64,000 nt of DNA, from assembly GCA_963706575.1 (NCBI GenBank), contig CAVPNL010000015.1:224001-288000 (forward strand), read 5' to 3'. The position numbers were made by a program, and so were the translations under genes. The DNA comes from an uncultured delta proteobacterium (GTDB taxonomy: Bacteria; Desulfobacterota; Desulfobacteria; Desulfobacterales; JAHEIW01). Positions 21,506 through 53,886 of the stretch are shown here, piece after piece. Position 1 is the stretch's first letter; each line of letters begins with the position of its first letter. The notes under the pieces are model-generated. The model had not been told where the DNA came from and did no database searches. It worked only from the letters and a program-made list of their open reading frames with translations.

Positions 21506-21925
21506 ATGAAACTATCCACACGAAGCCGTTACGGAACCAGAATACTGGTGGATCTGGCTCGTAATAAAGACAAGGGGCCGATCCAAATCGGCGAAATATC
21601 AAAGCGCCAGGATATTTCGGTCAAGTACCTCGAACAGCTCATCCGGCCCCTGAAAAAAGCGAAACTGGTGACCAGCGTACGTGGACCCAAGGGCGGGCAC
21701 CTGCTGGCGGAAAAGCCGGAAAATATTTCCCTGGGGCAGATTGTGCGTTTATTCGAGGGGCAATCTGATCTGGTTGAATGCGTCAGTTATCCCGAAAAAT
21801 GCCCCATGTCCGATGATTGCCAGGTTCGCCTGGCCTGGCGCGATGCCACCGAGGTCTTATATGAAAAACTGGATTCTACGACCATCTCTGATCTGATGAA
21901 TGAAAATTGCGCTGGAGAAGATTAA
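21506..21925 (+). CDS. Rrf2-family transcription regulator (three Cys)
   Basis: MKLSTRSRYG, ISVKYLEQL, SVRGPKGG, C-x6-C-x5-C. Confidence 0.92.
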   Translation: MKLSTRSRYGTRILVDLARNKDKGPIQIGEISKRQDISVKYLEQLIRPLKKAKLVTSVRGPKGGHLLAEKPENISLGQIVRLFEGQSDLVECVSYPEKCPMSDDCQVRLAWRDATEVLYEKLDSTTISDLMNENCAGED

Positions 21926-22100
21926 GACCCTTGAACCGCGGATTCTTATCAGTGATTGAGCATTGCAATCATCTGTCCGGTGAATCTTTCAATTAATGCC
22001 GTATGCTGCTCGAGCATATTTAAATCAGCGAAAATAAGAAGTGTTCCAACATTTCAACATTCCAATTGGGGCGAAGCCCCTAACTTAACAGGAGGATGCC

Positions 22101-23342
22101 ATGAAAAAAATTGTCATTTTAGGATCAGGGGCCGGTGGAACGATGGTGGCCAGCCAATTGCACAGAAAATTAAACCCCAAAGAGTGGCAGATTACCATCA
22201 TCGACAATGATGAAGTCCACCATTACCAGCCGGGTTGGCTGTTTATTCCATTCGGTGTCTATTCCGCAGCAGATTGCCAAAAACCCAAGCGGGAGTTTAT
22301 CCCCGAGGGCGTTAATTTCGTGCTGGATGAGATCGTCGGACTCGACACGGATAAACGCGAGGTCAAAGCAAAAAAAGGGTCATACAATTATGATTGGCTC
22401 GTTATCGCCACCGGCTGCGGCATTGAGCCTGAAGAAGTCGAAGGCATGATGGATGACTGGCATAAAAATGTTCATGATTTTTACACCCTGGACGGCGCAC
22501 TGGCCCTGTACGAAAAGATGAAATACTTCGACAAGGGCCGGGTGGTGCTCAACATCGCCGAATTGCCGTACAAGTGCCCGGTGGCCCCAATTGAGTTTGT
22601 CTTTATGGCTGACTGGTTCTTTGAGACCAAAGGTGCCCGCGATAACGTGGAAGTTGAACTGGTCACACCCATGGCCGGTGCATTTTCAAAGCCGATTGCC
22701 TCCAGCATCCTGGGCGACATTGCGATACAAAAGAACATTAAAGTCACCCCGAATTTTGATATCGCCCAGGTCAATGCAGATGAAAAAACGATTGAATCGC
22801 ATAAGGGCGAAAAGGTGGACTATGATTTACTGGTGTCGATTCCGCCCAATTTTGGCGCCAAATTCCTGGAAGGCACCGGTCTCGAGGATCCGCTGCGATT
22901 CGTTGAAACAGATCATTTTACCCTCAAAGCCAAAAATGCCGACCATATTTTTGTTGTCGGTGATGCCACCAACGTACCGGCTTCCAAGGCCGGCGCAGTA
23001 GCCCACTATGAATCCGAAACCGTTGTCGAAAATTTAATACGTGAAATCGACGGTCAGGAACCGCACGGGACCTTTGACGGGCATGCGACCTGCTTTATCT
23101 GCTCAGGTCATGAAAAAGCGTTCTTAATTGATTTTAACTACGAATATGAGCCGCTGCCCGGTAAATTCCCCTTTCCGGGCCTGGGTCCCTTCAGCCTGCT
23201 GGGCGACAGCTATATGAATTACTGGGGCAAAATGATGTTCAAGTGGGTTTACTTTAACATGATGCTCAAGGGTGTGGAATTGCCCCTGGAACAACAAATG
23301 ACGATGGCCGGCAAAATGCGCCACGTCCTGACTCAAGCATAA
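22101..23342 (+). CDS. sqr: Sulfide:quinone oxidoreductase-like flavoprotein
   Basis: GSGAGG, HYQPGWLF, YKCPVAPIEF, GDATN..SKAG, FDGHATCFI; GGAGG SD. Confidence 0.8.
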   Translation: MKKIVILGSGAGGTMVASQLHRKLNPKEWQITIIDNDEVHHYQPGWLFIPFGVYSAADCQKPKREFIPEGVNFVLDEIVGLDTDKREVKAKKGSYNYDWLVIATGCGIEPEEVEGMMDDWHKNVHDFYTLDGALALYEKMKYFDKGRVVLNIAELPYKCPVAPIEFVFMADWFFETKGARDNVEVELVTPMAGAFSKPIASSILGDIAIQKNIKVTPNFDIAQVNADEKTIESHKGEKVDYDLLVSIPPNFGAKFLEGTGLEDPLRFVETDHFTLKAKNADHIFVVGDATNVPASKAGAVAHYESETVVENLIREIDGQEPHGTFDGHATCFICSGHEKAFLIDFNYEYEPLPGKFPFPGLGPFSLLGDSYMNYWGKMMFKWVYFNMMLKGVELPLEQQMTMAGKMRHVLTQA

Positions 23343-23352
23343 GGAGGCCGCC

Positions 23353-24045
23353 ATGACTACCGAAGAACAAATTCTCGAGCGACTCGATCGCATCGAGGCT
23401 CAGCTGGCTCCGGTGTCTGCCTCGGCCAGGGGCCTCAATGAACTCAGAGAAGATTTAATTCCCTTGAGCGGTCAGGCATTTCGACTGCTGATCCGGGAGC
23501 TGGAAGATGTGGAGTCCGGCTTTCAGCTGGAGGACCTGCTGGGGCTGATGAAGCGCTCTTTACGCAGCGTAAAGCACCTGCAGTTCTGCCTTGAACAGCT
23601 GGAAAACATTGTGGACTTTGTGCTCACCATTGAGCCCCTGCTCAAGTCGTCGGTGCCGCAACTCATCAACTATCTGGATGACCTCGAGCAAAAAGGGGTC
23701 CTGCGAATTATTCAATCGACCCTGGATGTGCGTGCCAAGGTTGCCGCATCTTACAGTCCTGAAGATGTCGATCAAATCGGTGACGGCCTGGTCGCGCTGC
23801 TGGGACTGGCCCAAAAACTTAGCAATCCACAGGCCCAGGCCTTTTTGGGAAAAATGGCCGCATTGCCCTCAATGGTCGATCTGGATAAAGCCAAACCAAT
23901 CGGGCCTTTCGGCATGCTGGGGGCTTTAGGCAGCAAAGAGGCCCGACAGGGGCTGGGCGTGCTGATGGAATTGACCAAGGCCATGGGCGGCCTGAAAAAC
24001 GGCAACGGCAGCCCAACAGCTGAAGTGCCAGAACCGATCGCTTAA
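23353..24045 (+). CDS. DUF1641-family protein
   Basis: C-terminal PIGPFGMLGALGSKEARQGLGVLMELTKAMG, directly downstream of the SQR-like gene (known pairing). Confidence 0.75.
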   Translation: MTTEEQILERLDRIEAQLAPVSASARGLNELREDLIPLSGQAFRLLIRELEDVESGFQLEDLLGLMKRSLRSVKHLQFCLEQLENIVDFVLTIEPLLKSSVPQLINYLDDLEQKGVLRIIQSTLDVRAKVAASYSPEDVDQIGDGLVALLGLAQKLSNPQAQAFLGKMAALPSMVDLDKAKPIGPFGMLGALGSKEARQGLGVLMELTKAMGGLKNGNGSPTAEVPEPIA

Positions 24046-24239
24046 ACACAAAGGTCGGCAGGGTGCCGCTTACCATTTTCCATTACCATTTACCATCTTG
24101 AGTACGGCACCCCGCTGATTTCACAAAAAATGCCTGCAGAGGACTGCGGGCTATTGCGGGCTAATGCCTTATCCAATAGAGCTGGTATAAAAAGCATAAA
24201 AAGAATTGGCTTAGAGCCTAGATTTGCTGGAGAAAGAAA

Positions 24240-24683
24240 ATGGAAAAACAGATGGTTCAATGTGAGGATGGGCGCCGCAGGCAGGCGCGTATTCACGGTG
24301 TTCCTAAAGAAGAAGGCGGTTTCAGGGTTTGGCAGGCCGGTGTTCGGTTAAAAGGCAAACATGTTTCCGGAGAGGCCTGGTACAGCTTTCAAACCAAAAC
24401 CTGGTATTTTATCATCGATCCGGAAGGTAAGCACAGCCACCTGATGGACCGGATCAACGATACCATCCGGGGCGAAAAGATCGGTAAGTTGAAGGACCAG
24501 CTAAAACAGCTGGAATCGCGGCAGCTCATTGAACAAAAGAAGATTGCCCAACATCAAGAAGCCCTGGAAGAAATCGAAAGCGAGATTGTAACGCTCAAAA
24601 AAGACCTCGCCAAAACCGAAAAAGGGATGCCTCTGGAATCCGGTACGTCGCTGCAATATTCCGCGGGGATTAAAAGAAACTAG
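24240..24683 (+). CDS. Hypothetical protein (beta-rich N-terminus, coiled-coil C-terminus)
   Basis: GGAG SD, 147-aa ORF; its TAG stop is the first three bases of the MITE. Confidence 0.7.
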   Translation: MEKQMVQCEDGRRRQARIHGVPKEEGGFRVWQAGVRLKGKHVSGEAWYSFQTKTWYFIIDPEGKHSHLMDRINDTIRGEKIGKLKDQLKQLESRQLIEQKKIAQHQEALEEIESEIVTLKKDLAKTEKGMPLESGTSLQYSAGIKRN

Positions 24684-24975: not shown

Positions 24976-25323
24976 TTACCCCGGTTGATTCGCCAGGCCG
25001 GCGGCAACGGCCTTACCGGCAAGATCATAAGCTGAATGCGACCACATCAAAAGCGGTATCCCTTCTTCATTAGCTCGATCAATGGTCTCCTGATCGGGTG
25101 TCTGCCCCCCGGTGAGGATAATCGCGGCCATTTCATGCAATATGGCCACATTGACAATATTCTGGTGAGTTTGCACCGTAAGCCAGATGCAGCCCGTCGG
25201 CGCATTGGCCATTACGTCACTTAAAAGATCACCGCAATACCCACCTTGAATCTGCCGATCAAGCGCATTTTGCCCAGCGGCCACGTGTAAGTTAAAACGG
25301 TCTACAAATTCTTTGACATTCAC
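24976..25323 (-). CDS. DRTGG-domain protein
   Basis: GGYCGDLLSDVM, IWLTVQTHQNIV, AAIILTGG; GTG start. Confidence 0.85.
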   Translation of the reverse strand: MNVKEFVDRFNLHVAAGQNALDRQIQGGYCGDLLSDVMANAPTGCIWLTVQTHQNIVNVAILHEMAAIILTGGQTPDQETIDRANEEGIPLLMWSHSAYDLAGKAVAAGLANQPG

Positions 25324-25532
25324 GGCTGAATCACCCTTTCTTTTTCAAATTTTGAAACGCTCACAATAGGTAAAATATAGTTTAGCATAATTCAAGATCT
25401 TTTTGGCGCACCGAATTGAATGCAATTGATTTGTAAGGCCCTTTTCGTTATAGTGAAAACGCAATCTTGCTAAACACATTTTTGAAAATGACCCGGGATT
25501 ACTGTATTTTTTTCCTCTAATTGAATCTGACC

Positions 25533-26624
25533 ATGGTCAAAAAAAAGAACCGCCCTGAAAATGAATCTTCATCAGCACCTACTGCTATTCCAGGCCTGAA
25601 TCTCAATCATTTGGTCGACCATCTCCCCTGCTACGTTTCCATTCAAAACCGCGACCTTCAAATCCTTTTTGTTAATGAAAATTTTAAAAGGGACTTTGGC
25701 GACGGCGTCGGCAAAAAATGCCATACCGTTTATAAGTGCTCCACGGACATATGCCCCAATTGTCCGGTACAAAAAACCTTTGAGGATCGGCGCCTTCATA
25801 TTGCCGAGGAAACCGTACAGATGGCAAATGGCAAAATCTGTCAAATTCTCATTCAAACCTCCCCTATTTTCAATAATAATGGCGACGTCACGGCCGTCAT
25901 TGAAATGGCAACCAACATCACCCAGGTAAAAATAGATCAAAAAGAGTTGGTCACCCTGGGCCAATCCATTGCCCTGTTATCACACGGCTTAAAAAACATA
26001 TTGGAGGGGCTGCAAGGCGGTGTCTATGTCGTTGATGAAGCGTTCAAAGATGGCGATATGGCACTGGCCAGAAAGGGCTGGCAAATTGTCAGCAAAAATA
26101 TTTATGGAGTTGCCGATTTTGTTAAAAATATTTTATATTCTTCTAAAAACCGGCCACTTAAATACGATCTGGCATCACCCGGCCAAATGGCCAAAGATTC
26201 ATTGGTATTATTTAAGGAAAGAGCTGCCGGAATGCATATCCGGCTGAGACATCAAATCAATCCCTATATACCGAATGTTCATTTGGATGTCGCCAGCATT
26301 GGCATGATGTTAAATAACCTGATCTGGAACGCGCTGGAAGCCTGCCTGAATGACAAGCAAAACAAAAATCATTTTGTCAGTGTCAAAACAGATTTTTTTG
26401 ACGATGATCATTTTATGTTTGAGATCACGGATAATGGCAGCGGAATGGATGAAAGGACCCAGCGCAACATCTATGAGGAATTTTTTTCAACCAAAGGCAG
26501 TGCGGGCACCGGCCTCGGCCTGGCGGTGGTGGAAAAAGTTGTCAATAAACACGGGGGCAGAATCGAGATGGCCTCAACACCGGGAAAGGGCACAAAATTC
26601 AAAGTAATTCTTAAGATAAAATAA
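25533..26624 (+). CDS. PAS-domain sensor histidine kinase (cytoplasmic)
   Basis: PAS with C..C..CP motif; H-box [33 protein letters not shown]. Confidence 0.92.
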
Positions 26625-26761: not shown

Positions 26762-27238
26762 ATGGCAAAAAACCTCAAAATCGTTATGATCGATGACAAC
26801 ACCGATTTCCTTTTTACGATGGAAACCTTTCTTCAAAGAAATGGTTTTGAGGTGCAAACGGCTGAAGACGGTCAAAAAGGACTTGAGTTAATCAAAAAAG
26901 AGCGCCCCGACCTGATTCTACTCGACATCATGATGGAAACCCTGTTCTCTGGATTTGAAGTTTGCAAGCAGGTTCGGTCCGATGAAGACCTGAAGGATAT
27001 TCCCATCATCGGTATCTCCGCCATGGGTGATGAACTGGACATTAACTACAGCCAGTGGCCGGATTATGAATATTTCCGACCGGACACCTTTATGGAAAAA
27101 CCGGTCGACAAACAGCGGCTGCTGCAGCTGATTCCGGAAGTGATCCAGAAAGCACAGAAGCGCAAACGCAGTCCCAAGTGGAAAAAAGAAATGGAAAAAG
27201 ATTGGGCCCAAAAGGCATCTCAAAAAAAGCGGTCCTGA
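26762..27238 (+). CDS. Single-domain response regulator
   Basis: IDDN, PDLILLDIMM, SA, EKP receiver motifs; AGGAG SD. Confidence 0.92.
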   Translation: MAKNLKIVMIDDNTDFLFTMETFLQRNGFEVQTAEDGQKGLELIKKERPDLILLDIMMETLFSGFEVCKQVRSDEDLKDIPIIGISAMGDELDINYSQWPDYEYFRPDTFMEKPVDKQRLLQLIPEVIQKAQKRKRSPKWKKEMEKDWAQKASQKKRS

Positions 27239-27412: not shown

Positions 27413-29149
27413 ATGTTCGATTATCTCTTCTACACCTCTCTTGTCATTTTCCTCCTGGGTTTGATCTATAAGGTTTCAACCTGGTTTACCAAGAAGATCG
27501 GTATTTTAGGAAAAGACATCACGACGGCGCAACGATTGCAGTCGGCTGTCAAGGGCATTGCCGGTGTCATTTTCACCTCAAAGATCCTGACCCTCCTTAA
27601 AGCCGTTGTGCTGGATGTTCTATTGCAACGCCGGGTTTTAAAAGAAAGCGTTACCCGCTGGCTGGCACACATGTTGATATTTTACGGTTTCATGCTGCTG
27701 CTGCTCATGCATGCCCTGGAATCCGTGGTATCGGAAGCAATATTCAGCGAATATTATTCCACCATAAATCCATTTTTCTTTCTTAGGGATTTTTTCGGCG
27801 CCATGGTGCTCGTCGGTGTGATCCTGGCGGCGGTTCGCCGTTACTTTGCAAAACCCCGCCGGCTTCGAACCGGCGGCATGGATCATTATGCCATCATGAT
27901 CGTGGCAGTGGTTATGCTGTCCGGAATCGCCCTGGAAGGCCTTAAGATCACATCGCACTCTGAATTTATGCGGATGGTCGAAGACTATGCCGGCCTGGAT
28001 GATGAAGATGAAATTGAAGCCCTCGAGACGCTCTGGGTAAAACAATACGGCACCGTCTCGCCCAAGATCGAAGCACCTTTTGACGAAGAACTGTTAGAAG
28101 CCGGCCGTGAAGTCCACGAGAGCAACTGCATGGATTGCCACGCGCCTGCACGCTGGGCGTTTAACGGCTTTGCCGCGGCCAAACTCATCAAACCGCTGGC
28201 CTTGTGGCTGGACGAAAAAGACGGTGTTACCCTCTTATGGTATATTCATATCATCGCCTGCTTTATCGGGCTGGCTTATCTGCCCTTCAGCAAAATGTTT
28301 CACCTGTTTACCACCCCCTTAAGCCTGATTGCCAACCGGGTCATGGACCCGGCCCGATCCTTGTCGGCCAACATCCTCACCCGCCAGGTGATGGAACTGG
28401 ACGCCTGCACCCACTGCGGAAGCTGCAGCCTGAATTGTTCTGCGGCCATGGTGTTTGAGGCCATCGGCAACGAATACATTCTGCCGTCAGAAAAAATGAC
28501 CCTCCTCAAGAAGGTGGCATCCGGCAAAAAACTGGATGATGAACAGATGCGGGCCATCCAGCAAGGTGTTTATCTGTGCACCAATTGCGACCGCTGCACC
28601 GTGCGCTGTCCCTCCGGCATCCGCTTGAAGGAATTGTGGTACAGTGTCCGCGAGGCGCTTTTGGAAAGCGGGCCGCCGCTGCCGCATGTTTTAAGCCCCT
28701 TTTCTTTCGCCCGGGGATTAATCATTCAGGAGGGACTCTCGGCTGATATATATACCCGGCCGATTGAAAAGGCCAGGCAGGCGGTCGGTGGACGGTTTGC
28801 CGATTTGATGAATCCGGACACCCCCATTCCGCTAATTGCGGAGGACAACGCCGAACCTCAAACGGCCATTAAGGCTAACACCTATACCCATTGCTTCAGC
28901 TGTCAGAGCTGCACAACGGTCTGTCCGGTGGTCGCTAACTATGATGACCCCGAGCAAGTGCTCGGATTGCTGCCCCATCAAATCATGTGCAGCCTGGGTC
29001 TGGGATTAACCGAGATGGCCTGCGGCGCCGGTATGATATGGGATTGCCTGACCTGTTACAAATGCCAGGAAAACTGCCCGCAGCAGGTCGAGGTATGTGA
29101 CCTTTTATATCGTTTGAAAAATACGGCGGTAGCATCGATCGAGCCCTAA
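27413..29149 (+). CDS. NarI/HmeC-like membrane heme-b anchor with CxxCH loop, fused to two HdrC-like 2x[4Fe-4S] domains
   Basis: RWLAHMLIFYGF..LMH, WYIH..LPFSKMFH; CMDCH at 28127-28141; CTHCGSCSLNC, CTNCDRCTVRCP, CFSCQSCTTVCP, CLTCYKCQENCP. Confidence 0.85.
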   Translation: MFDYLFYTSLVIFLLGLIYKVSTWFTKKIGILGKDITTAQRLQSAVKGIAGVIFTSKILTLLKAVVLDVLLQRRVLKESVTRWLAHMLIFYGFMLLLLMHALESVVSEAIFSEYYSTINPFFFLRDFFGAMVLVGVILAAVRRYFAKPRRLRTGGMDHYAIMIVAVVMLSGIALEGLKITSHSEFMRMVEDYAGLDDEDEIEALETLWVKQYGTVSPKIEAPFDEELLEAGREVHESNCMDCHAPARWAFNGFAAAKLIKPLALWLDEKDGVTLLWYIHIIACFIGLAYLPFSKMFHLFTTPLSLIANRVMDPARSLSANILTRQVMELDACTHCGSCSLNCSAAMVFEAIGNEYILPSEKMTLLKKVASGKKLDDEQMRAIQQGVYLCTNCDRCTVRCPSGIRLKELWYSVREALLESGPPLPHVLSPFSFARGLIIQEGLSADIYTRPIEKARQAVGGRFADLMNPDTPIPLIAEDNAEPQTAIKANTYTHCFSCQSCTTVCPVVANYDDPEQVLGLLPHQIMCSLGLGLTEMACGAGMIWDCLTCYKCQENCPQQVEVCDLLYRLKNTAVASIEP

Positions 29150-29192
29150 GGCTCAATCGATGGTTATTCGTTAATGGAGCCTTCTAATGTTA

Positions 29193-29270
29193 CTCACGCA
29201 AAGGCGCTAAGCCGCTAAGAAAGATAATTTAATCACAAAAAACCTTGGCGACTTTGCGTCTTTGCGTGAG
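29193..29270. repeat. Inverted array of 8-mer repeats (CGCAAAG / CTTTGCG)
   Basis: CTCACGCAAAGGCGCTAAGCCGCTAAG...CTTGGCGACTTTGCGTCTTTGCGTGAG. Confidence 0.75.
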
Positions 29271-29319
29271 GCATAAAGCTTTAGTTCAATTTAGGCACTT
29301 TTCCAATAGGAAAAACCAT

Positions 29320-30195
29320 ATGAAATTTGCATTATTCCATGGCTGCAACATCCCATCGCGTGTCGAGCAGTACGCCGATGCCACCGTGGCGGTGTGCGCC
29401 CGGCTGGGTATCGCGCCGGTTGAGATGGACACTTTCAACTGCTGCGGATATCCGGTCCGCAATGCGGATCATCGCGCCTATATCCTCTCGGCTGCTAAAA
29501 ATTTAGCCCTGGCCGAACGAGCCGGCCTGGATATGCTGGTGATGTGCAAGTGCTGTTACGGCAGCTTAAAAAAAGCAGCTTATTTTTTGGACCAGGATCC
29601 GGACTTAAAAGCGGACATCAACCGTATCCTGGCAAAAGAAAATCTGGAATATAAAAACACCATCCAGGTCAAGCATTTGCTTTCGGTTTTGTATCATGAT
29701 GTGGGCCTTGAGCGTCTAAAGGAAACAATTTCAAAAACCTACAGCGGCCTGCAGATCGCGGTCAGCTATGGGTGCCATGCCTTGCGCCCGAGCACAGTGA
29801 CGGAGTTTGATGATCCGGTTTCACCGAAAATCTTTGATGAACTGGTGGAGGCCACCGGCGCGTTCAGTGTGGAGTGGGCCCGCAAACTGGATTGCTGCGG
29901 CGCTCCCCTGACCGGTATCAACGATCAGCTGGCCATGGAAATGGCCCAAAAGAAAATTGACAGCGCCCGGGAAGCCGGCGCACAATTTATCTGCACCGCC
30001 TGCCCTTACACCCAGCTTCAGTTCGACGGGGTGCAAATGCGCATGGCCGCTCAATCCAATAACGGCGAGCCGTTGGCGCCCATTTTGTATCCGCAGCTGC
30101 TGGGTTTGTGCATGGGCCTTGATGAAAAAACCCTGGGCATTTCTAAAAGTGAAATTGATCTGTCCAATATTACATCATTCTTAATGACGGAGTAA
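29320..30195 (+). CDS. hdrB: Heterodisulfide reductase subunit B-like (CCG domains)
   Basis: FHGC..NCCGYP..CKCC; YGCH.LRP..DCCG..TACPY.QLQFD; start at ATG 29320 after AGGA. Confidence 0.88.
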
Positions 30196-30197
30196 TT

Positions 30198-33100
30198 ATG
30201 TCGAAAACAGGCACAGGCGCAGTCATGGTGGTCGGCGGGGGTATCACCGGGATGCAGGCAGCTCTGGATCTTGCCGATTCCGGTTACTACGTCTACCTGG
30301 TGGAAAGCTCGAGCTCCATCGGCGGCATGATGTCGCAGCTGGACAAAACCTTTCCCACCAATGACTGCGCGATGTGAATTATATCGCCTAAACTGGTCGA
30401 GGTCGGCCGGCACATCAACATCGAATTGCTGACGCTCAGCGAGGTGCAGCGCATTGACGGCGAAGAGGGCAATTTTGAAGTCAAATTGACCCAAAACCCT
30501 CGTTACGTCGACATGGAAAAGTGCATCGCCTGCAATGCCTGTGCCGAAAAATGTCCCAAGAAAGTTTCCAACGCCTATGACGGCGGTCTGAGCAAACGCA
30601 AAGCCGTTTACGTGCAGTATGCCCAGGCGGTGCCGCTCAAATATACGATCGATGCCGATACCTGCATCTATTTCCTCAAGGGCAAGTGCAAAGCCTGCGA
30701 AAAATTCTGCCCGACCGGCGCCATCAACTTCGAAGATCAAAAAAAGGACATCACCTTAAATGTGGGTGCCGTGGTTTTATCCGCCGGCAGCCAGGCATTT
30801 GATCCGGCTGTTTACGATACCTACGGCTATTCAAACTCTCCCAATATCGTCACCAGCCTGGAATTTGAGAGAATCCTGTCGGCTTCAGGGCCCTACGGCG
30901 GGCATATGGTCAGACCGTCGGATAAAGCCGAGCCTGAAAAAATTGCCTGGCTGCAGTGCGTGGGCTCCAGGGATACCCATCTCGGCGCCCGCGGATACTG
31001 CTCTGGCGTCTGCTGCACTTATGCCGTCAAAGAGGCCATTTTAGCCAAAGAGCATAGCAGCAATGGCCTGGATACGGCCATCTTTTACATCGATATTCGC
31101 ACCTTCGGCAAAGATTTCGAACGCTATTATAACAAGGCCAAAGACGACCTGGGCGTTCGTTTTGTTAAATCGCGCATTACCCATGTCGAGCCCATGGATG
31201 ACAACAGCAAGCACATCATTCGCTATGTCGATGCGGCCGGCCATAGCCGAGCGGAAGGATTTGATATCGTTGTGCTGTCTGTGGGCCTGGGGGCCCAGGA
31301 TCAGGCTGTTTCCCTGGCCCAAAAGCTGGATGTCGATTTAAACCATTATCAGTTTGCCAAAACCGGCGGATTTGATCCGGTCAAAAGCTCGCGACCCGGC
31401 ATCTATGTTTGCGGTGCCTTCACAGAGCCCAAAGATATTCCCACTTCGGTCATCGATGCCAGTGCCGCCGCCGGCAAGGTCGGAACCCGGCTGGCGGATG
31501 CCAGAGGGACCCTGACAAAAACCAAAGAGCTGCCCCCGGAAATCGATGTCAAGGGCGAACCCCCGCGAATTGGTGTTTTTGTCTGCTGCTGTGGCACCAA
31601 TATCGCCGGATTTGTCGATGTGCCCGCCGTGGTAGAATTTGCCAAAACCCTGCCGAATGTGGTCTACGCCGAGCAAAATCTGTTCAGCTGCTCGCAGGAT
31701 ACTCAGACCCAGATTTCAGCAACCATTAAAGAGCATCGGCTCAACCGGGTGGTGGTGACCGCCTGTACGCCCAAGACCCACGAACCCCTTTTCCAGGAAA
31801 CCCTGATTAACGGGGGGTTGAACAAATATCTTTTCGAGATGGCCAATATCCGCAACCAGTGCTCGTGGGTGCACAAAGACGACATGAACAAAGCCACCGA
31901 GAAGTCCAAAGATCTGCTGCAGATGGCGGTGGCCAAGGTCGCACTGCATGAGCCCCTGGTGGAGCCCCGGATGGAAATCAATCAGGCCGCGCTGGTCATC
32001 GGCGGCGGCGTTGCCGGCATGACCGCCGCCCAGACCCTGGCTGCTCAGGGATATAAAACCTTCCTGGTTGAAAAAAATGAGCGCCTGGGCGGCCAGGCCC
32101 TGAGTCTCAGTGAAACCTGGCAGTCGGAAGCGGTGGGGCCGTTTCTGGATCATTTGATCGCGGAGGTCACATCCAATGAAAATATCGAGGTATTTTTAAA
32201 TACCGGCGTCGCCGGCGCCGATGGATTTATCGGAAATTTTAAAACCAGCATCCAGTCCAACGGTGACAGTCAAGTTCTGGAACACGGCGTTACCCTGATC
32301 GCTTCAGGCGCCGAAGAATTTAAAACAGAGGATTACTTGTATGGCCAGGATCAGCGGGTGCTCACCGGCCTGCAGCTCCAGAAAAAGATTTTAAACGCAA
32401 ACGGGTTTGACTCCTGCCGCACAGCCGTATTTATCCAGTGTGTGGGTTCGCGCACTCCTGAACGCCCTTACTGTTCGAAGGTTTGCTGCACGCAGTCCAT
32501 TAAAAGCGCCTTGAGCCTTAAAGCCAAAAATCCCGCTATGGATATTTTCGTATTGTACCGGGATCTACGGTCTTATGGTTTCAGAGAGGACCTTTATCGC
32601 CAGGCGCGCGACCAGGGGATCAAATTCATCCGCTATGATAACGAAAAGGAGCTCGCCGTCCGCTCAGCTGAAAACAGCCTGGAAATTACGTTTTCGGATC
32701 GGGTGCTCAGGCGGCAAATGCTGATTAGCGGTGATCTTCTGGTTCTGGCCAGCGCGGTGGTGCCCGAAAAAAGCAACCCCCTGGCGCAGATGTACAAGGT
32801 GTCTCAAAATGACGACGGTTTTTTTGTCGAAGCGCACGTCAAACTGCGGCCCAATGATTTTGCCACCGACGGTGTGTTCGTCTGCGGCCTGGCGCATGCG
32901 CCCAAACCCATCGAGGAATCCATTTCCCAGGCCCAGGCGGCCGCATCCCGGGCGGTGACGGTTTTATCAGCGCTGGAGGTTTCGGTCAGCGGCACGGTGG
33001 CGGTGGTGGATCCGAACTGCTGCAGCAGCTGCGGTGTCTGCGTGGAGATTTGTCCCTATTCGGCGCCTCAATTCATCGCGAACACCGGCAAGGCCGAAAT

Positions 33101-33251
33101 TCAGGCCACCCTGTGCAAGGGTTGCGGGCTGTGCGTGGCCTCCTGCCGGTCAGGAGCCATTCATCTGAAAGGCTTCGACACCGGTCAGATTATGGCTCAG
33201 CTCAAAACGTGCTTGCTCGATGCAGCGCCGGCAGAGACGACTTTTAGTTGA
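30198..33251 (+). CDS. hdrA: Large two-FAD-module HdrA, selenoprotein (Sec at codon 60)
   Basis: ATG 30198 gives [23 protein letters not shown](30375-30377)-IISPKL, in frame with the 30426 ORF; two GGG FAD motifs, two QCVGSR..YCS.VCC motifs, ferredoxin motifs. Confidence 0.9.
30375..30410 (+). promoter_or_regulatory. UGA Sec codon and bacterial SECIS hairpin
   Basis: Hairpin CTGGTCG-AGGT-CGGCCGG (30393-30410); G-containing apical loop starts about 23 nt after TGA. Confidence 0.8.
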
Positions 33252-33271
33252 TTCTGTATTTCTATTTTAAG

Positions 33272-33383
33272 AGGTTTCAGGTGTCAGGGTTATTGGAATT
33301 GTTCGATTGGTTTTATTGGTCTTATTGGTTAAATTGGTTGAGTTTAGCCGAACCAATTGAACTAATTAAACCAATTAAACAAA
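33272..33383. repeat. Inverted array of 9-mer repeats (TTATTGGTT / AACCAATTA), preceded by GGTTTCAGGTGTCAGG
   Basis: ATTGGTTTTATTGGTCTTATTGGTTAAATTGGTT...AACCAATTGAACTAATTAAACCAATTAAAC between hdrA and the FrhB-like gene. Confidence 0.75.
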
Positions 33384-33455
33384 TGTAACCGTTACCAACT
33401 GGCTGGCACCTATAAAAAATAAAATATCGCAAATAATGTGAAGGTGGTTGAACAC

Positions 33456-34577
33456 ATGAAGACCTTTACCGACTTAATTAATGAAGTTCAGAAGCCGGGG
33501 CTTTGCCATCGCTGCGGTGGATGCGTGACCTTTTGCACTGCCATTAATTACGGCGCCCTGGAGCTGGATGCCGAGGGCAAACCGCGCTATGCCGATGAGG
33601 CCAAATGTATCGAATGCGGCTTGTGCCATACCATCTGCCCGGAAATCGACGAGCTGGATGCAGAAACCCGCAAAAGCGCAGGGTGGACTCCGCCCATCGG
33701 GCGCGTGATGGAAACCAGCATTGCCCGGGCCACCGATCCCAACATCCGCAACAAGGCCACCGACGGCGGTGTGGTGACGGCACTGCTGGTGCATCTGTTT
33801 AGACGCGGCCGCATTGACGGCGCCATTGTCTCCAAACCGGCCGGCCCCTTCCAACGGGTGCCATTTCTGGCTGAGACTGAAAAAGATATTTTAGATGCCG
33901 CCGGGTTTTCCTTCGACACCTCCCATGGCATGACCAGCTTCAGCGATTATTATTTAACGTACTCCCAGATCAAAGAATTCGACCCCTTGATTAAAAAAGG
34001 GTTGCAGCGCGTGGCCTTTGTGGGCACCCCCTGCCAGATCAAAGCCGTGCGCCGCATGCAGTCCCTGGGCATCATTCCGTCGGATTCGATAAAATTCTGC
34101 CTGGGGCTGTTCTGTTCGGGTAATTTCGTTTTCGGCAAAAAGGAACAGGAAAAACTGGGTGAAATCGGCGGATTCAAATTTAAAGATGTCAAAAAAATAA
34201 ACATTAAAGAAGAGCTGATTGTACATTTGAAGGACGGCGAAGAAAAAACCATGATGCTCGATGAGCTCGAGTTCATGAAACGCTTTGCCTGTTACTTCTG
34301 CCCGGATTATTCCGCCGAGTACGCCGATGTATCCTTCGGCGGCATCGGCTCCCAAGAAGGCTGGACCACTGTTATTACCCGCACCCCTGTCGGCCGCGCG
34401 ATTTTTGCCGACGCCAAAACCAGCGCCATCGAAGAACACCGACCGGACAATTTTCCAAAACTGGCAGCCCGGGTACTCAAAAAAGTGCAGACCTGGTCGG
34501 CCCGCAAAAAAAAGGTGGCCGCTCAAAACCGCAAAGTGCTCAACCGGAAATTTCCCGGTATCAAGAAAGATTCTTGA
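33456..34577 (+). CDS. FrhB/FdhB-family (F420-dependent oxidoreductase beta subunit-like) protein with 2x[4Fe-4S]
   Basis: CHRCGGCVTFC, CIECGLCHTICP, ATDGGVVTALL, FVGTPCQI, GLFC, CYFCPDYSAEYADVSFG..GWTTVITRT. Confidence 0.88.
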   Translation: MKTFTDLINEVQKPGLCHRCGGCVTFCTAINYGALELDAEGKPRYADEAKCIECGLCHTICPEIDELDAETRKSAGWTPPIGRVMETSIARATDPNIRNKATDGGVVTALLVHLFRRGRIDGAIVSKPAGPFQRVPFLAETEKDILDAAGFSFDTSHGMTSFSDYYLTYSQIKEFDPLIKKGLQRVAFVGTPCQIKAVRRMQSLGIIPSDSIKFCLGLFCSGNFVFGKKEQEKLGEIGGFKFKDVKKINIKEELIVHLKDGEEKTMMLDELEFMKRFACYFCPDYSAEYADVSFGGIGSQEGWTTVITRTPVGRAIFADAKTSAIEEHRPDNFPKLAARVLKKVQTWSARKKKVAAQNRKVLNRKFPGIKKDS

Positions 34578-34696: not shown

Positions 34697-36604
34697 ATGG
34701 CCGAGTATGTTGCCGCTGCACTGTTTGTCTATACCGACGATACGAAATATCTGATCGATCCGGTGCAAAACAATTCAGCTCGCACCCGCATCACCGCTGT
34801 TGCCTTTGAGGCCTTCATGCAAACACCGCAGGCACAGCTGGAGGGGATTGATCATGTGGTGGTTGCAGGATCTCTTGAAGTGATCAAGGAGATTTTGCGT
34901 CTGTCCATGAACTACCATTTCAGCATTGGCATCATCCCCACCGAAAAACAAAAAGATTTAATCAAGTTTTACGACCTGCCCAAAAATCCGACCGATGCCG
35001 CCGAACTGGCGTTGCGCTTGGATGGCCAGGTCATAGATTTAATATTGTGCAATGGAAAGATCATGTTGTTCAAGGCCACCGTTGGCCGGATCCCGCTTTT
35101 AGATACCCCCGCTAAAGCCAGCTGGATTCGGGTATTGGCTGACGCTTTGAGAAAATTTGTCGGGTTTAAACTTTACACGTTTAAATTCAGTACCGCCGGC
35201 AAACAAAAAATAAATACCGCCGCAAGCGGGTGTATGATCCTTCAGCACAGCAGGGGAAGCTTTGCCTCCAGATTAATGTCTCATGATCATTCCTTTTCGG
35301 ATGGAATGATTTCAATGGTCATTTCTGCTCCCATCTCAATTATTGCCTATGTTAAGTTGCTGTGGCAGGCCCTCAGATCTTCTAAAGGATATAAAAAACT
35401 TCCCAGCTCCATCGGATACATCAAAAGCCCTCAGATTGATATAGAGCCAGAAACTCTGTTCGATGTCCTCATCGATGACGAAGATACCACACATACGCCG
35501 CTGCATTGCGAAACCATACTCAAAGCGGTGCGCGTCAATGTCGGGAAAAGTTTACAGGATGAAGGCGTGGGCGCTGCGGGTGCCGGAGAAATAATTGACA
35601 TCGACAATCTCCCACGAGAAAATGAACTTCTCAAAGCCAAGCGACATAAGAGAATCCCTTTTTTCTCCTACGCCTCCGAAGAGCGTTTCCAGGATCTGTT
35701 CCCGGCGCTGCGCGAAGATGCAAGAATCAACAGTATCTATCTGGTTCTAATGGTGCTCAGCACCATGCTGGCTGCAGTCGGGCTTTATTTAAACAGCGCC
35801 TCTGTGATCATTGGCGCCATGTTACTGGCGCCTCTGATGACACCCATCGTTTCTCTGGCCATGGGCATACTTCGAGGCAATATCGATCTTTTTAAAAACT
35901 CGATCGGGAAAATCGTGATTGGCATTATTATCGCTTTGCTTTCATCCGCACTGATTACGTTTTTGTTTCCCGATAAACCCATTACGGAAGAAATGCTGGC
36001 CCGGCTGAATCCGACTTTGCTGGATCTTGGCGTAGCCATTATTTCGGGGATCGCCGCGGCATACTCCAAGTCGTTCAAAGAGATTATTCAGAGCCTGGCC
36101 GGCGTGGCGATTGCCGTAGCATTGGTGCCGCCCCTGGCGGTTGCCGGAATCGGCATCGGACGATGGGATTTCCATTTCTTTTACCAGGCCTACCTGCTCT
36201 TTTCGACCAATCTGGTCGGCATAATTATCGCTGCCATATTTACCTTCCGGGTGCTGGGTTATTCTGCGGTGGTACGCAGCAAGCGCAGTCTTGCGGTCGT
36301 ATTTATCTTCCTGATGCTGATTTCGATTCCGCTCTATTTGTCCTACTCCCGCATCGTGGAAGATCGGGTATTCGAAAAAAGCTGGCAGAATGAACGCTTT
36401 TTGGTCAATGAAAAATATCTTATCATTCGAAATGCATCCATATTCCGGCGCGGAGATAAGCGCATAATCCTAATGGACGTATTGGCTCGTGAGCCGCTTA
36501 ACCGCAGAGACCTAAATGCGTTTAAAAAGAAAATTCAAGCCAATTTTAGCCAAGAAACTGATCATTCGAATCAATACGTTTTACATCCCGTAAGGTTGCC
36601 ATGA
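34697..36604 (+). CDS. DUF389 (TIGR00341-like) membrane protein with N-terminal DAG-kinase-like domain
   Basis: LNSASVIIGAMLLAPLMTPI, RLNPTLLDL, LAGVAIAVALVPPL; probable indel near 36550 (the other frame ends KKLIIRINTFYIP, TAA 36593). Confidence 0.8.
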   Translation: MAEYVAAALFVYTDDTKYLIDPVQNNSARTRITAVAFEAFMQTPQAQLEGIDHVVVAGSLEVIKEILRLSMNYHFSIGIIPTEKQKDLIKFYDLPKNPTDAAELALRLDGQVIDLILCNGKIMLFKATVGRIPLLDTPAKASWIRVLADALRKFVGFKLYTFKFSTAGKQKINTAASGCMILQHSRGSFASRLMSHDHSFSDGMISMVISAPISIIAYVKLLWQALRSSKGYKKLPSSIGYIKSPQIDIEPETLFDVLIDDEDTTHTPLHCETILKAVRVNVGKSLQDEGVGAAGAGEIIDIDNLPRENELLKAKRHKRIPFFSYASEERFQDLFPALREDARINSIYLVLMVLSTMLAAVGLYLNSASVIIGAMLLAPLMTPIVSLAMGILRGNIDLFKNSIGKIVIGIIIALLSSALITFLFPDKPITEEMLARLNPTLLDLGVAIISGIAAAYSKSFKEIIQSLAGVAIAVALVPPLAVAGIGIGRWDFHFFYQAYLLFSTNLVGIIIAAIFTFRVLGYSAVVRSKRSLAVVFIFLMLISIPLYLSYSRIVEDRVFEKSWQNERFLVNEKYLIIRNASIFRRGDKRIILMDVLAREPLNRRDLNAFKKKIQANFSQETDHSNQYVLHPVRLP

Positions 36605-37765
36605 AAAATTTAATCCATCTTTCAATCCTCATTTCCTTTGTCTTCTGGCTGGGCGGATGCGACCAGAAACCGTCAATAGAGCCTTCCGGCAAAACCATAA
36701 AGATCGGCATCATTGCACCGCTCAGCGGCCCCGACCATATCAAAGGCAAGGAAGGTCTGAGAGGGATGCAATTCGCAATGCAATTGCAGCCTTATCTTCA
36801 AAATGGCGACCGCATCGAGTTGGTTGCGGAAGACGACAGGAACGATCCTGCTTTGACAGTCCAATTGCTGAAAAAATTGGTCGAAAAAGATAAGGTATCG
36901 GCAATCATTACGTTTTCAACCAGCGATCCGGTTTTGGCCATGGCAAAAGTTGCCGATGACTATAAAACACCCATTCTGGCGGCCATCGCCACCCATCCGG
37001 ATATCACCACGCACAATGGTTTTATCAGTCAGCTTTGTTTCGACGACCATTTTCAGGGGACCACTGCGGCGCTGTTTGTCAGAGACGAACTGCTCATCGA
37101 CAAAGTGGCCGTATTCATCAACCCGGACAGCGCTTATTCCAGAGATCTGGCTGCTAAATTTGAAAGTAAGTTCAAATCCATCGGTGGTGAGATTACAGAT
37201 ACGATACGTTTAGCAGAAGAAACCGCTGACTTATCCGAAAGAGATTAAAAGGGTGCACGATCAATGCCCCGGAACTGCTTTATCTTCCAATAGGCGCAAA
37301 AGATGTGCTCCGCATTATCAGGGAAGTTCGGGAACTGAGCTGGAAGCCCCAAATGATGGGAAGCGATGGATTAATATCAACCATGCTCACACAGCATAAA
37401 GAAGAATTACACCTTGTACGACGGCATGCTGTGCGATTGATTTTTTCGCCCACGGAATGCCTTTAACTCCTTTCGGCGAAAAGGTAAGAGATGCGTATCA
37501 CGATAAGTATAAAGGTAAACATCGGGCCGCATCAACCTCATATTCGGCTACTCGGCGTTGAAGGATATGCCCTGTTGCTCGACGCAATGAACCGATGCAA
37601 CGATCCCGCAGACCGGGAATGCCTCAACCAGCAGATCCGTTCAACGATAATTTTACAGGTCTTGCGGGTAACATTACCATCGGACCGGACGGTAAGGCCC
37701 AGCGCCCGCTTTGCATCAACTCCATTCAGAACGGCCTGTCGGAATTTATCGTCAAAGTTTATTAA
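36601..37765 (+). pseudogene. LivJ/LivK-type ABC substrate-binding lipoprotein, multiply frameshifted
   Basis: LGGC lipobox, IKIGIIAPLSG; homologous-looking segments continue in other frames (PELLYLPI, MMGSDG, LLLDAMNR, FTGLAGNITIGPDG..IVKVY-TAA 37765). Confidence 0.75.
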
Positions 37766-37854
37766 TCCTCATGACAAACAAATCCGTATAATTAAGATTA
37801 CCCCCCAAGGGGCTGGATCCTACAAAAAGCCTGCCGAACCGGCCGGTGTTGGAC

Positions 37855-38964
37855 TCACCGCCCGGCAGCTGGGCTCCTGTCAAGATCGGTCTCCAACTCA
37901 TTGACAGCAACTTTTTTCTTTACCAGGCTGTTCCAGAGAAAAATGGCATAGAGCAAAGGAACATGGTCCCGGATCGAATCGGGGATAAGCTGCGACAAAT
38001 CAGACTTTTTGTTTTCTTTCAAACCGCCGGCAGCATCCGAGTCATTGCGACAGGGAGCATTCGTCACTTCCATTGCGGCGGGCCCATCATGAATGCTGTC
38101 TTTGCGGTCGATCAATTTGAGCTCGCCAACATGGCGGTATATGCCGGCCGGCGGTACCCGGGATACGATGTCGTCTCCGTTAACCACTCGATAAGCCCGC
38201 AATTTGAAATTTTCTTGAAACTTTTGATCTCCCACCCGGGGTGAACCAAAGGTATACAGCCCTTGAACATGCTGGAATCGATCTGCAGCAAGGGTTGCAA
38301 GGGCTGCTCCCAGGCTGTGGCCGGTAAACCATATTTTGCAGCCCTCATCCTTCAGGTTTTTCATGTAGGGGAAAATGTCGGCCCAGACTTCTTCCAATGC
38401 GTCTCGGAAACCACGGTGGACTCTGCCGCCCCGGACCCAATCCGATAGCCGAATATCGAAATCGGTTGTCCAGTCGGCAACTGTCTGCCAGGGATCGAAA
38501 CGCTCGTTCAGCTTCCAGCCCTCACTGCCACGGAATGCAACAATAGCGAATTGACCGTTGCTGGCGATGAAGCATTGGGTGCTGAGCTTGCTGAAAAATC
38601 TTAAACGCTTCAGTCCGGCCGCGCTGAATCGTTGTCTGACGTATGCTTCGTCGGCATAAACGAGTGTAGAGGCTTCGGCCAGCCACCAGGCGTTAATCAA
38701 GCTGAATGACGCTGATCGGTGCTGAAAAGGAAAAAACTCATGATTTTGGAAATAGGCGTAATCCCTGTAAGGCGGTGAAAGGTTTTTAAACGTAATCTCA
38801 GGGATTTCTTTTTTGCAAACTTGTGCGGGTTCCGAGGCCCAGCTAAGGGGTGAAAAAGATATGAGCCCGGCAGCCATTAGAATGCCAAGTGATTTGAGTC
38901 TGCGATGAGCAAGATTCATAATGGATTCTTCAACCGCTGACAGCCCGGTATGCCTCACCTTCAT
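37855..38964 (-). CDS. Class 3 lipase family protein
   Basis: IVAFRGSE, VHRGF, TGHSLGAALA, YTFGSPRVG, DIVSRVP. Confidence 0.9.
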   Translation of the reverse strand: MKVRHTGLSAVEESIMNLAHRRLKSLGILMAAGLISFSPLSWASEPAQVCKKEIPEITFKNLSPPYRDYAYFQNHEFFPFQHRSASFSLINAWWLAEASTLVYADEAYVRQRFSAAGLKRLRFFSKLSTQCFIASNGQFAIVAFRGSEGWKLNERFDPWQTVADWTTDFDIRLSDWVRGGRVHRGFRDALEEVWADIFPYMKNLKDEGCKIWFTGHSLGAALATLAADRFQHVQGLYTFGSPRVGDQKFQENFKLRAYRVVNGDDIVSRVPPAGIYRHVGELKLIDRKDSIHDGPAAMEVTNAPCRNDSDAAGGLKENKKSDLSQLIPDSIRDHVPLLYAIFLWNSLVKKKVAVNELETDLDRSPAAGR

Positions 38965-43423: not shown

Positions 43424-43424
43424 C

Positions 43425-50164: not shown

Positions 50165-50183
50165 ATCTAAAGGAGATCTCTTT

Positions 50184-53847: not shown

Positions 53848-53886
53848 ATGAAAAAGAAACCTTTTTCGATAAAGGAGCAAGTACAT

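What the first reader, a model, noticed from the sequence alone, without database searches (positions are those of the whole stretch)
27413..34577. Membrane-anchored HdrABC-like complex paired with an FrhB-family subunit, with no MvhD or Flx genes
Seen: NarI-like/2xHdrC fusion, then hdrB, a large two-module Sec-hdrA and an FrhB-like gene, preceded by a PAS kinase and response regulator. No mvhD, flxABCD, hydrogenase or formate dehydrogenase catalytic gene lies in the cluster. Known: HdrA is the flavin-bifurcating subunit and is usually fed via MvhD or Flx; FrhB-family proteins bind FAD and often F420. Inference: a possible membrane-coupled bifurcating or confurcating complex linking a deazaflavin or other two-electron carrier, a disulfide (for example DsrC) and the quinone pool or periplasm.
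Basis: partly seen in the sequence, partly recalled or inferred. Interest (0 to 1): 0.75.

Follow-up and report, generated by a model that had tools for sequence, protein, structure and literature searches.

The report
Haem-tipped membrane Hdr with F420-free FrhB
Many uncultured sediment sulfate-reducing bacteria share a four-gene set predicted to form a wire from an outward-facing haem across the membrane to an electron-splitting flavoenzyme, capped by a subunit whose relatives in methane-making archaea use the cofactor F420; these bacteria lack the F420-making genes, so the subunit likely handles a different, still unidentified electron carrier.

Summary
The four genes are real and the coordinates are right: NarI-like/2xHdrC fusion, hdrB, selenocysteine double-hdrA, FrhB-like gene; no mvhD or flx in the cluster. 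The order is conserved across Desulfobacterales. (1) F420 is very unlikely: the FrhB subfamily is in 74 of 251 class-level genomes and none of those 74 has cofE; F420-proximal residues are altered. (2) The membrane subunit carries a conserved CxxCH haem c motif in a predicted periplasmic loop, removable in some relatives. (3) The slot after hdrA holds either frhB (17 of 27 loci) or mvhD-flxC (5 of 27), never both; elsewhere this FrhB accompanies HdrA-Mvh hydrogenase and HdrA-MetVF operons, and in distant relatives it is fused to histidine kinases in two orientations. HdrB has lost the Cys234-equivalent ligand, as DsrK has. Best reading (0.5): a membrane HdrABC in which an F420-independent FrhB flavoprotein is the two-electron port in place of Flx; carrier unknown. 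Sensor role 0.2. The scan noted the haem c anchor and the FrhB-in-Mvh operon before on other DNA. New variant of a known kind; not found described in 9 paper searches.

The parts
27413..29149 (+). Membrane anchor: NarI/HdrE-like five-helix cytochrome b (His86, 100, 279, 297), inserted mono-haem c domain (about residues 189-274), then two HdrC-like 2x[4Fe-4S] domains
   Evidence: Four His and 16 Fe-S Cys invariant or nearly so in 50 of 50 and 52 of 52 aligned rows; AF2 model pLDDT 83; best fold match EtfD 9OJN Z 24.4, rmsd 3.7, 334 aligned; HdrC Z 10.3; NarI Z 9.9
28127..28141 (+). CMDCH haem c binding motif in the acidic loop between helices 4 and 5, predicted periplasmic; invariant Met188 (27974-27976) is the candidate sixth ligand (inferred)
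   Evidence: CxxCH and M188 in 50 of 50 rows with at least 480 aligned residues; loop has 8 K/R vs 21 D/E, cytoplasmic loops are K/R-rich; weak PDB hits are class I c cytochromes, E 0.07-1; whole insert deleted in L088, L201, L207
29320..30195 (+). HdrB-like protein, two CCG domains, nine of the ten cluster cysteines; Thr231 (30010-30012) stands at the Cys234 position
   Evidence: Alignment to 8RVU HdrB, E 5.8e-55; Thr/Ser in one 29-row clade, support 100/100
30198..33251 (+). Selenocysteine HdrA, two fused flavin modules: module 1 with inserted ferredoxin and D-C-x-x-U motif, module 2 with the N-terminal-type cluster domain and C-terminal ferredoxin
30375..30377 (+). In-frame UGA (Sec60), followed by a conserved hairpin (likely SECIS)
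33456..34577 (+). FrhB-like flavoprotein: N-terminal 2x[4Fe-4S] domain, FAD motif TDGG, [4Fe-4S] cysteines 193/220/279/282; F420-proximal Ser209 replaced by Gly296, IGKGK replaced by IKEE, low-confidence insertion 151-173
   Evidence: Best sequence and fold matches are the F420 reductases 8RJA_E and 8RIU_B
25521..26624 (+). Cytoplasmic PAS histidine kinase, conserved upstream in the window's lineage
   Evidence: Pfam; synteny
26762..27238 (+). Single-domain response regulator (no output domain found)
   Evidence: Pfam; synteny
24976..25323 (-). Divergent DRTGG-domain gene that travels with the cluster
   Evidence: Pfam; present upstream in most close loci with enough flank and in L217

Best explanation
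These genes encode a predicted membrane-anchored HdrABC complex in which an FrhB-like flavoprotein likely serves as the cytoplasmic two-electron port that MvhD-FlxABC provides in relatives, using a carrier other than F420. Shown: gene set, cofactor motifs, conserved order, frhB/flx alternation, lack of F420 genes. Inferred: electrons run between the periplasmic cytochrome c3 pool (or menaquinone) and the cytoplasm through haem c, two haems b and four HdrC clusters; HdrB, whose proximal cluster has lost the same ligand that DsrK lacks, likely acts on DsrC-bound sulfur; HdrA module 1 would split or merge electron pairs between the FrhB-like FAD, ferredoxin and the HdrB/membrane branch. The carrier is unidentified; a pyridine nucleotide other than the NADH used by Flx (for example NADPH) or an unknown hydride carrier is my guess.
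For: Slot after hdrA in 27 loci with at least 500 bp downstream: frhB 17, mvhD-flxC 5, neither 5, both 0. In 40 frhB loci sampled from the 84 matches: HdrA on the same strand within 7.5 kb in 31, MvhD 28, MvhG/A 18, MetV/F 9, Flx 0. IQ-TREE (75 rows): the window's clade (12 rows, 100/95) nests among Mvh-operon FrhBs, while L201/L207 and L200 are separate placements next to the same membrane Hdr, so frhB joined it more than once. All FAD and Fe-S motifs of FrhB are kept in 95-100% of 24 close rows; fold and architecture match the Ethanoperedens zeta subunit, which docks by its ferredoxin domain as a plug-in two-electron port (PMC11493965 section 7 read). cofE in 0 of 74 carriers. Genome has dsrA, aprA, qmoC, dsrC, cytochrome c maturation genes and 13 cytochrome c3 domain matches. 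DsrK has Asp at the Cys234 site (bioRxiv 10.64898/2026.08.25.746951, passages).
Against: No biochemical data; carrier, direction and bifurcation are untested. frhB is dispensable: 5 of 27 loci have neither partner, L016 (dropped from the count, truncated hdrA) also lacks it, and 5 of the 21 family genomes with the fusion had no orthologue (71-92% complete group). Most of the 17 frhB loci are one clade, so the alternation with flx rests on about three events. In distant relatives frhB occurs together with Flx genes (22 of 79 loci) or MvhD (24 of 79), so it is not a plain MvhD/Flx replacement. About 8 of the 40 sampled loci have no Hdr or Met gene nearby. Gaps of 170 and 204 bp flank hdrB and frhB, so one transcript is not shown. 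Relatives lacking HdrA altogether (Desulfobacter group, 34-38% identity) show the anchor can work without it.
Confidence: 0.5

Rival explanations
1. The FrhB-like protein is a redox sensor: it samples the HdrA electron pool and signals through the neighbouring PAS kinase and receiver protein, much as HoxBC signals to HoxJ (comparison recalled, not from a call). The catalytic complex is anchor-HdrB-HdrA, completed by modules encoded elsewhere.
For: 31 of 31 longer homologues are FrhB-histidine kinase fusions, 38-46% identical, 12 kinase-first and 19 kinase-last, in two separate clades; the six sequences read show no other sensor domain, and Pfam lists none for any of the 31. A third clade sits directly before an sCache kinase. 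The decayed second copy in this genome follows two kinase genes. PAS kinase plus regulator lie upstream in 13 of 16 frhB loci with enough flank.
Against: The window's protein is in the Desulfobacteria clade, apart from all fusion clades (100/100). In that clade only 8 of 40 loci have a same-strand kinase within 7.5 kb. The metagenome set (16 of 79 fused or adjacent) was fetched with a kinase-fusion query and is biased. L032 keeps the kinase pair without frhB; L043, L201, L207 have frhB without it.
Confidence: 0.2
2. The FrhB-like protein takes low-potential electrons from HdrA like a tethered ferredoxin and reduces a specific organic substrate at its FAD, as the ferredoxin-dependent FrhB-fold enzyme HCAR does; it is a terminal enzyme, not a port to a general carrier.
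For: Co-occurs with MvhD (28 of 40), so it may dock at another site; the remodelled channel and subfamily-specific insertion fit a different substrate; HCAR 5DQR is a fold match (E 8e-14); 12 of 79 distant loci have frhB directly beside an hdrC-like gene.
Against: No common substrate-supplying gene recurs beside frhB across Mvh, MetVF and membrane-Hdr contexts; the only shared partner is HdrA.
Confidence: 0.12
3. frhB is a loosely attached accessory gene; the membrane anchor and HdrB serve mainly the separately encoded HdrA-FlxDCBA module, giving an ordinary Flx-Hdr with a membrane outlet.
For: C4 carries hdrA-mvhD-flxCBA with no hdrB or hdrC, followed at once by the only dsrC and preceded divergently by a cytochrome c3 gene; the window's hdrB is the only tblastn HdrB hit at E 1e-12; other families keep anchor-hdrB-hdrA-mvhD-flx as one run (L080-L083, L155).
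Against: The genome has 26 CCG matches, so an HdrD-type partner could serve Flx instead, as proposed for Syntrophobacter (PMC5947623, passages). frhB keeps all cofactor ligands at 72-92% identity and was recruited more than once. This reading can also hold alongside the best one.
Confidence: 0.12
4. One reading: the FrhB-like subunit uses F420 or Fo, made by unrecognised genes or taken from archaeal neighbours.
For: Closest solved relatives are all F420 enzymes; FwdI 8RJA_E also lacks the IGKGK motif yet reduces F420; one same-genus genome, G018, has cofG, cofE and cofD together.
Against: cofE in 0 of 74 carriers; the two cofE-positive genomes (G018, G130) had no match to this FrhB subfamily; Ser209 is Gly in all 135 subfamily rows.
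Confidence: 0.06

Closest known systems
FlxABCD-HdrABC of Desulfovibrio vulgaris (described in passages of PMC5947623 and PMC10553843; original paper not read)
   Same: HdrA, HdrB, HdrC-like domains; DsrC as proposed disulfide; relatives of this very cluster carry mvhD-flxC-flxB-flxA after hdrA (L080-L083)
   Different: Here no flx or mvhD in the cluster; HdrC is doubled and fused to a cytochrome b/c anchor; FrhB-like gene in the Flx slot
EtfD / EMO / HdrF and HdrDE (PDB 9OJN; bioRxiv 10.64898/2026.08.18.745454 and PMC2702500, passages)
   Same: NarI-like five-helix haem b domain followed by an HdrC-like dicluster; best fold match Z 24.4
   Different: All four haem b histidines kept, an inserted haem c domain, a second HdrC domain, CCG part on a separate HdrB, partner is HdrA and not ETF
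HotSeep-1 HdrA plus haem c/CCG protein AMM42179-AMM42180 (PMC10553843, passages and parts of supplementary file 4)
   Same: Same idea: cytochrome c to DsrC or ferredoxin with an HdrA; reported as highly expressed
   Different: Listed as a four-haem 'QmoC fusion' found only in HotSeep-1 (4 entries); no FrhB mentioned; I could not compare the sequences, so homology is untested
F420-reductase zeta subunit and FwdI of Ca. Ethanoperedens (PDB 8RIU_B, 8RJA_E; PMC11493965)
   Same: Ferredoxin domain + FrhB domain; best sequence (E 5e-48) and fold (TM 0.73-0.75) matches; plug-in module on a larger oxidoreductase
   Different: Those reduce F420 in F420-making archaea; here no F420 genes, GSVG loop is GGIG, extra insertion
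DsrMK(JOP) and QmoABC
   Same: Membrane cytochrome b wired to HdrC/HdrB- or HdrA-like parts; DsrK also lacks the Cys234 ligand
   Different: The genome has its own aprA-qmoC cluster on C6; QmoC has Fe-S first and membrane last; this HdrB keeps the five cysteines of the other cluster, which DsrK has lost

Membership tests
HdrABC | HdrA with FAD-binding GxGxxG and the C-x(11-14)-C-xxx-CC cluster motif | tested here: met
   Present twice; cysteines invariant in 33 rows
HdrABC | Lys/Glu pair at the bifurcating flavin | tested here: inconclusive
   Landmarks recalled, not aligned to 5ODC. Module 1 has E222/E224 and K278 nearly invariant; module 2 has K769, with Q726 (E in 12 of 12 close relatives) and Q728
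HdrABC | HdrB with ten cysteines for two non-cubane clusters | tested here: not met
   Nine of ten; Thr231 at Cys234 (five-cysteine rule from PMC13261682 passage)
HdrABC | HdrC with two [4Fe-4S] clusters | tested here: met
   Two such domains in the fusion
HdrABC | Soluble, fed through MvhD | tested here: not met
   Membrane-fused; no mvhD on this contig
HdrABC | Flavin-based bifurcation activity | not testable with these tools
   Needs enzyme assays
FlxABCD-HdrABC | flxABCD next to hdrABC | tested here: not met
   Absent in the window; present after the same anchor in L080-L083 and at C4 without hdrBC
FrhB/FdhB fold family | DGG FAD motif, four cluster cysteines, FrhB fold | tested here: met
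F420-dependent FrhB enzymes | Host makes F420 (cofD, cofE, cofG) | tested here: not met
   genome 91.8% complete; cofC and cofH not searched
F420-dependent FrhB enzymes | F420 channel residues S209/V210 and IGKGK (PMC3591093) | tested here: inconclusive
   Changed to G296/I297 and IKEE, but FwdI also lacks IGKGK and PMC3930138 withdrew the F420 density
F420-dependent FrhB enzymes | F420 oxidoreductase activity | not testable with these tools
   Needs purified protein
NarI/HdrE cytochrome b | Five transmembrane helices, four haem b histidines | tested here: met
QmoABC | QmoC model above cut-off; next to aprBA | tested here: not met
   72.7 bits vs cut-off 300; true qmoC and aprA on C6
EMO/EtfD/HdrF | CCG domains in the same chain and etfAB neighbours | tested here: not met
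   HdrB is a separate gene; no etf genes among window ORFs. One relative, L086, does fuse CCG
c-type cytochrome domain | Covalent haem on CxxCH with an axial ligand | tested here: inconclusive
   Motif invariant and maturation genes present; PDB matches weak; haem not shown

The most novel reading that the evidence does not exclude
About three in ten Desulfobacteria genomes carry an FrhB subfamily that plugs into HdrA from hydrogenase, methylene-THF reductase and membrane complexes alike and links them through an unidentified F420-like hydride carrier of bacteria; other lineages fused the same domain to histidine kinases to sense that carrier. The window's complex would then be a periplasm-to-cytoplasm bifurcating wire between cytochrome c3, DsrC sulfur and this new carrier.
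Probability: 0.15. Interest if true: 0.9.

Novelty: new variant of a known kind. Interest (0 to 1): 0.62.

Why it matters
How completely oxidising marine sulfate reducers connect periplasmic cytochromes, DsrC and low-potential cytoplasmic carriers is still open. This cluster offers a concrete, widespread candidate with a built-in haem c, and it exposes a testable puzzle: a common FrhB-fold flavoprotein in bacteria that cannot make F420. A single enzyme assay on a homologue from a culturable Desulfobacterales strain could name its substrate. The kinase fusions add a likely new redox-sensor domain, and the DsrK-like ligand loss in an otherwise two-cluster HdrB is a natural variant for non-cubane cluster chemistry.

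Tried and rejected
Complex prediction of HdrA (residues 15-925 of the 941-aa frame) with the FrhB ferredoxin domain (1-85): no answer, score 0.00, controls not run; not used as evidence. Idea that frhB replaces MvhD in Mvh operons: rejected, tblastn finds MvhD in all 18 such loci. Idea that HdrB's cysteine loss is tied to frhB: rejected, L200, L201, L207, L217 have frhB with Cys, and the loss is one event. Longer fused forms of the anchor: none among 7993 candidates (weak). Promoter and terminator scan gave nothing decisive: 21 promoter-like sites vs 10.8 expected, 17 terminator-like vs 13.4, none between hdrA and frhB. RNA: best runs share only 0.07-0.16 of words; contigs of relatives in 4 RNA libraries from 2 studies touch all genes and bridge hdrA-frhB in X1 and X2, but DNA carry-over was not excluded, so co-transcription is not shown. 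First full IQ-TREE run timed out; FastTree and a 75-row IQ-TREE were used. Papers: 9 searches found no description of this cassette or of FrhB-kinase fusions. The id I tried for the 2011 comparative survey of sulfate-reducer energy metabolism was not held, and the 2021 HdrA(BC) review (PMID 33460586) was seen only as a reference; either may list this gene order. Supplement files 13-17 of PMC10553843 were not searched, and bioRxiv supplements were not seen.

Full report
Observation. The four genes lie at the stated coordinates on the + strand: a 578-aa membrane/Fe-S fusion (27413-29149), hdrB (29320-30195), a 1017-aa hdrA with an in-frame UGA at residue 60 (30198-33251) and a 373-aa FrhB-like gene (33456-34577). 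A PAS kinase and a receiver-only regulator precede them. UGA is kept in 32 of 33 membrane-Hdr loci printed, with a conserved hairpin behind it, and the genome has tRNA-Sec. No MvhD match lies on this contig. The host is a sulfate reducer of a Desulfobacterales lineage: dsrA, aprA, qmoC and dsrC are present and the nearest named records are uncultured Desulfobacterales. The genome is 91.8% complete, 6.4% contaminated.

The membrane anchor. Hydropathy, charge bias and the AF2 model (pLDDT 83) give a NarI-type five-helix domain. The best fold match is EtfD (Z 24.4, rmsd 3.7, 334 aligned), then HdrC (Z 10.3) and NarI (Z 9.9). His86, 100, 279 and 297 are invariant. Between helices 4 and 5 is an acidic loop of about 90 residues with CMDCH; CxxCH, Met188 and Trp208 are present in 50 of 50 rows (window plus 49 homologues with at least 480 aligned residues, down to 34% identity). 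Three further relatives (L088, L201, L207) lack the whole insert, so it is a removable module. Its PDB matches are weak (E 0.07-1) but mostly class I c cytochromes (7 of 10 rows). Haem c binding and Met188 as ligand are inferred. I found this motif; an earlier scan note (e1-5329820) had reported it on other DNA.

HdrB. Nine of ten cluster cysteines are present; Thr231 aligns with Cys234 of solved HdrB. Thr or Ser marks one 29-row clade (100/100). A 2026 preprint states that DsrK has Asp at this 'supernumerary' ligand (10.64898/2026.08.25.746951, passages). This fits an open, DsrK-like site for DsrC-bound sulfur, but could also mean reduced activity; both are inference. The change is not tied to frhB.

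Synteny. Of the loci holding anchor, hdrB and the end of a closely related hdrA with at least 500 bp after it (27; L015 dropped for 78 bp, L016 for a truncated hdrA, loci ending earlier not counted), 17 continue with frhB, 5 with mvhD-flxC, 5 with neither, none with both. In the window's family, 21 of 24 genomes have the anchor and 16 of those 21 have the frhB orthologue; the 3 without the anchor have none. Kin are not independent. A distant group (Desulfobacter and others, 34-39%) has anchor and hdrB only. In this genome an hdrA-mvhD-flxCBA run on C4 has no hdrB or hdrC, is followed by the only dsrC and faces a cytochrome c3 gene; it may share the window's anchor.

The FrhB-like protein. It keeps the TDGG FAD motif, four cluster cysteines and an N-terminal 2x[4Fe-4S] domain. 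Its nearest solved relatives by sequence and fold are the Ethanoperedens F420 reductases 8RJA_E and 8RIU_B, which dock on larger enzymes through that ferredoxin domain (PMC11493965, section 7). Yet F420 synthesis is missing: cofE, cofG and cofD matched 1 of 61 genomes (G018, which lacks the subfamily), and cofE matched 1 of 251 class-level genomes (G130), not one of the 74 that carry the subfamily; archaeal controls rang in each search. Ser209 of FrhB, placed near F420 in PMC3591093 (passages), is Gly in all 135 rows; IGKGK becomes IKE(E/D); a low-confidence insertion follows the FAD loop. These residue changes are only suggestive: FwdI also lacks IGKGK, and PMC3930138 (passages) withdrew the F420 density.

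Where the subfamily sits. In 40 loci chosen from the 84 matches (spread over families, favouring long contigs), same-strand neighbours within 7.5 kb were HdrA 31, MvhD 28, MvhG/A 18, HdrB 11, MetV/F 9, a kinase 8, the membrane anchor 4, Flx 0. The window's clade nests among the Mvh-operon copies; L201/L207 and L200 are separate (midpoint root, no one-clade test run). HdrA is the one constant partner. In a hydrogenase operon the protein would take electrons, in a MetVF operon give them; that two-way use is what a port to a diffusible carrier would show (inference).

Kinase link. All 31 longer homologues returned are FrhB-histidine kinase fusions (38-46% identity), 12 kinase-first and 19 kinase-last, in two clades; a third clade lies directly before an sCache kinase. 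In 79 of the 80 metagenome loci that could be scored, 49 had HdrA within 6 kb, 22 Flx, 16 a fused or adjacent kinase; this set was fetched with the fusion alignment and over-represents kinases. So the domain likely acts as a sensor in those lineages. The window's copy lies outside these clades, and kinase pair and frhB can be lost separately, so I rank sensing second here. A word search of earlier findings and a paper search found nothing on such fusions.

Mechanism. Most likely (0.5): periplasmic cytochrome c3 or menaquinone, haem c, two haems b and four HdrC clusters form one branch; HdrB acts on DsrC sulfur; HdrA module 1 couples these to ferredoxin and to the FrhB-like FAD, which exchanges two electrons with a non-F420 carrier. 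Shown: genes, motifs, order, alternation with Flx, missing cof genes. Inferred: assembly, direction, bifurcation, DsrC use, the carrier. Rivals: sensor 0.2, substrate-specific terminal reductase 0.12, accessory gene with Flx in trans 0.12, deazaflavin 0.06.

Comparison and novelty. It works like Flx-Hdr grafted on an EtfD/HdrE-type anchor, but fails membership of Flx-Hdr, Qmo, EMO and canonical HdrABC on tested features. The nearest published idea is the HotSeep-1 HdrA plus haem c/CCG complex (PMC10553843, passages and parts of supplement 4), listed there as four-haem and HotSeep-only; homology untested. PMC2702500, PMC5109826, PMC5947623, PMC5296606, PMC12054007, PMC13261682 and 10.64898/2026.08.18.745454 were seen as passages only and showed no such cassette in them. 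Nine searches of an open-access library found no description; key subscription reviews were not seen. Verdict: new variant of a known kind, interest 0.62.

Noticed in passing
G000:C5:344993-346103 (L006:4994-6007): Second copy of the FrhB-like gene (64% identity), frameshifted near its end and lacking one ferredoxin cysteine; long branch in trees; probably decaying. It follows two kinase genes.
   Followed up: yes
G000:C5:330700-344990 (L005:8718-19576, L006): Large cluster: QmoC/HdrD-like fusion, HdrL, mvhD, fdhB-like, and an HdrA with a response-regulator receiver domain inserted after its ferredoxin domain, then two kinases. In L019 and L026 this cluster converges on the frhB of the membrane-Hdr cluster.
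   Followed up: partly
G000:C4:339636-347684 (L172): Cytochrome c3 gene (divergent), Sec-hdrA, Sec-mvhD, flxC, flxB, flxA and the only dsrC, with no hdrB or hdrC.
   Followed up: partly
G000:C4:1700-8501 (L173): hdrA-mvhD-metV-metF cluster without hdrBC and without frhB.
   Followed up: no
G018:C270:1939-5029: A same-genus genome with cofG, cofE and cofD together; real F420 synthesis in a Desulfobacterales bin or misbinning. G130:C30 also has cofE.
   Followed up: no
window 21506-24683: Rrf2 regulator, type III sulfide:quinone reductase (NF049943 above cut-off), DUF1641 protein and a 147-aa unknown gene stay linked upstream of the cluster in many same-family loci.
   Followed up: no
L048, L052, L053, L056, L066, L089: Distant anchor homologues sit with glpA/glpB-like flavoproteins and in some cases glycerol-kinase-family genes, suggesting the haem c anchor also serves glycerol-3-phosphate oxidation.
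   Followed up: no
L162:9965-13764 and related loci L160, L165, L171: hdrA-mvhD-flxCBA-frhB clusters, one next to an actin gene (PF00022, E 5e-132), so probably Asgard archaea.
   Followed up: no
L131, L134, L139, L140, L143, L150, L152, L154: frhB directly upstream of an sCache-HAMP kinase and receiver genes, in L152 followed by a receiver domain fused to a formate/nitrite channel.
   Followed up: partly
window 36601-37904 and 39104-39964: Periplasmic binding protein and TAXI-type genes end abruptly and look frameshifted or broken.
   Followed up: no
window 42029-44444, 48635-62522: Cytochrome bd oxidase, two multicopper oxidases, cupredoxin, multihaem cytochrome and DsbD/thioredoxin genes: an oxygen- or copper-defence region in a sulfate reducer.
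   Followed up: no
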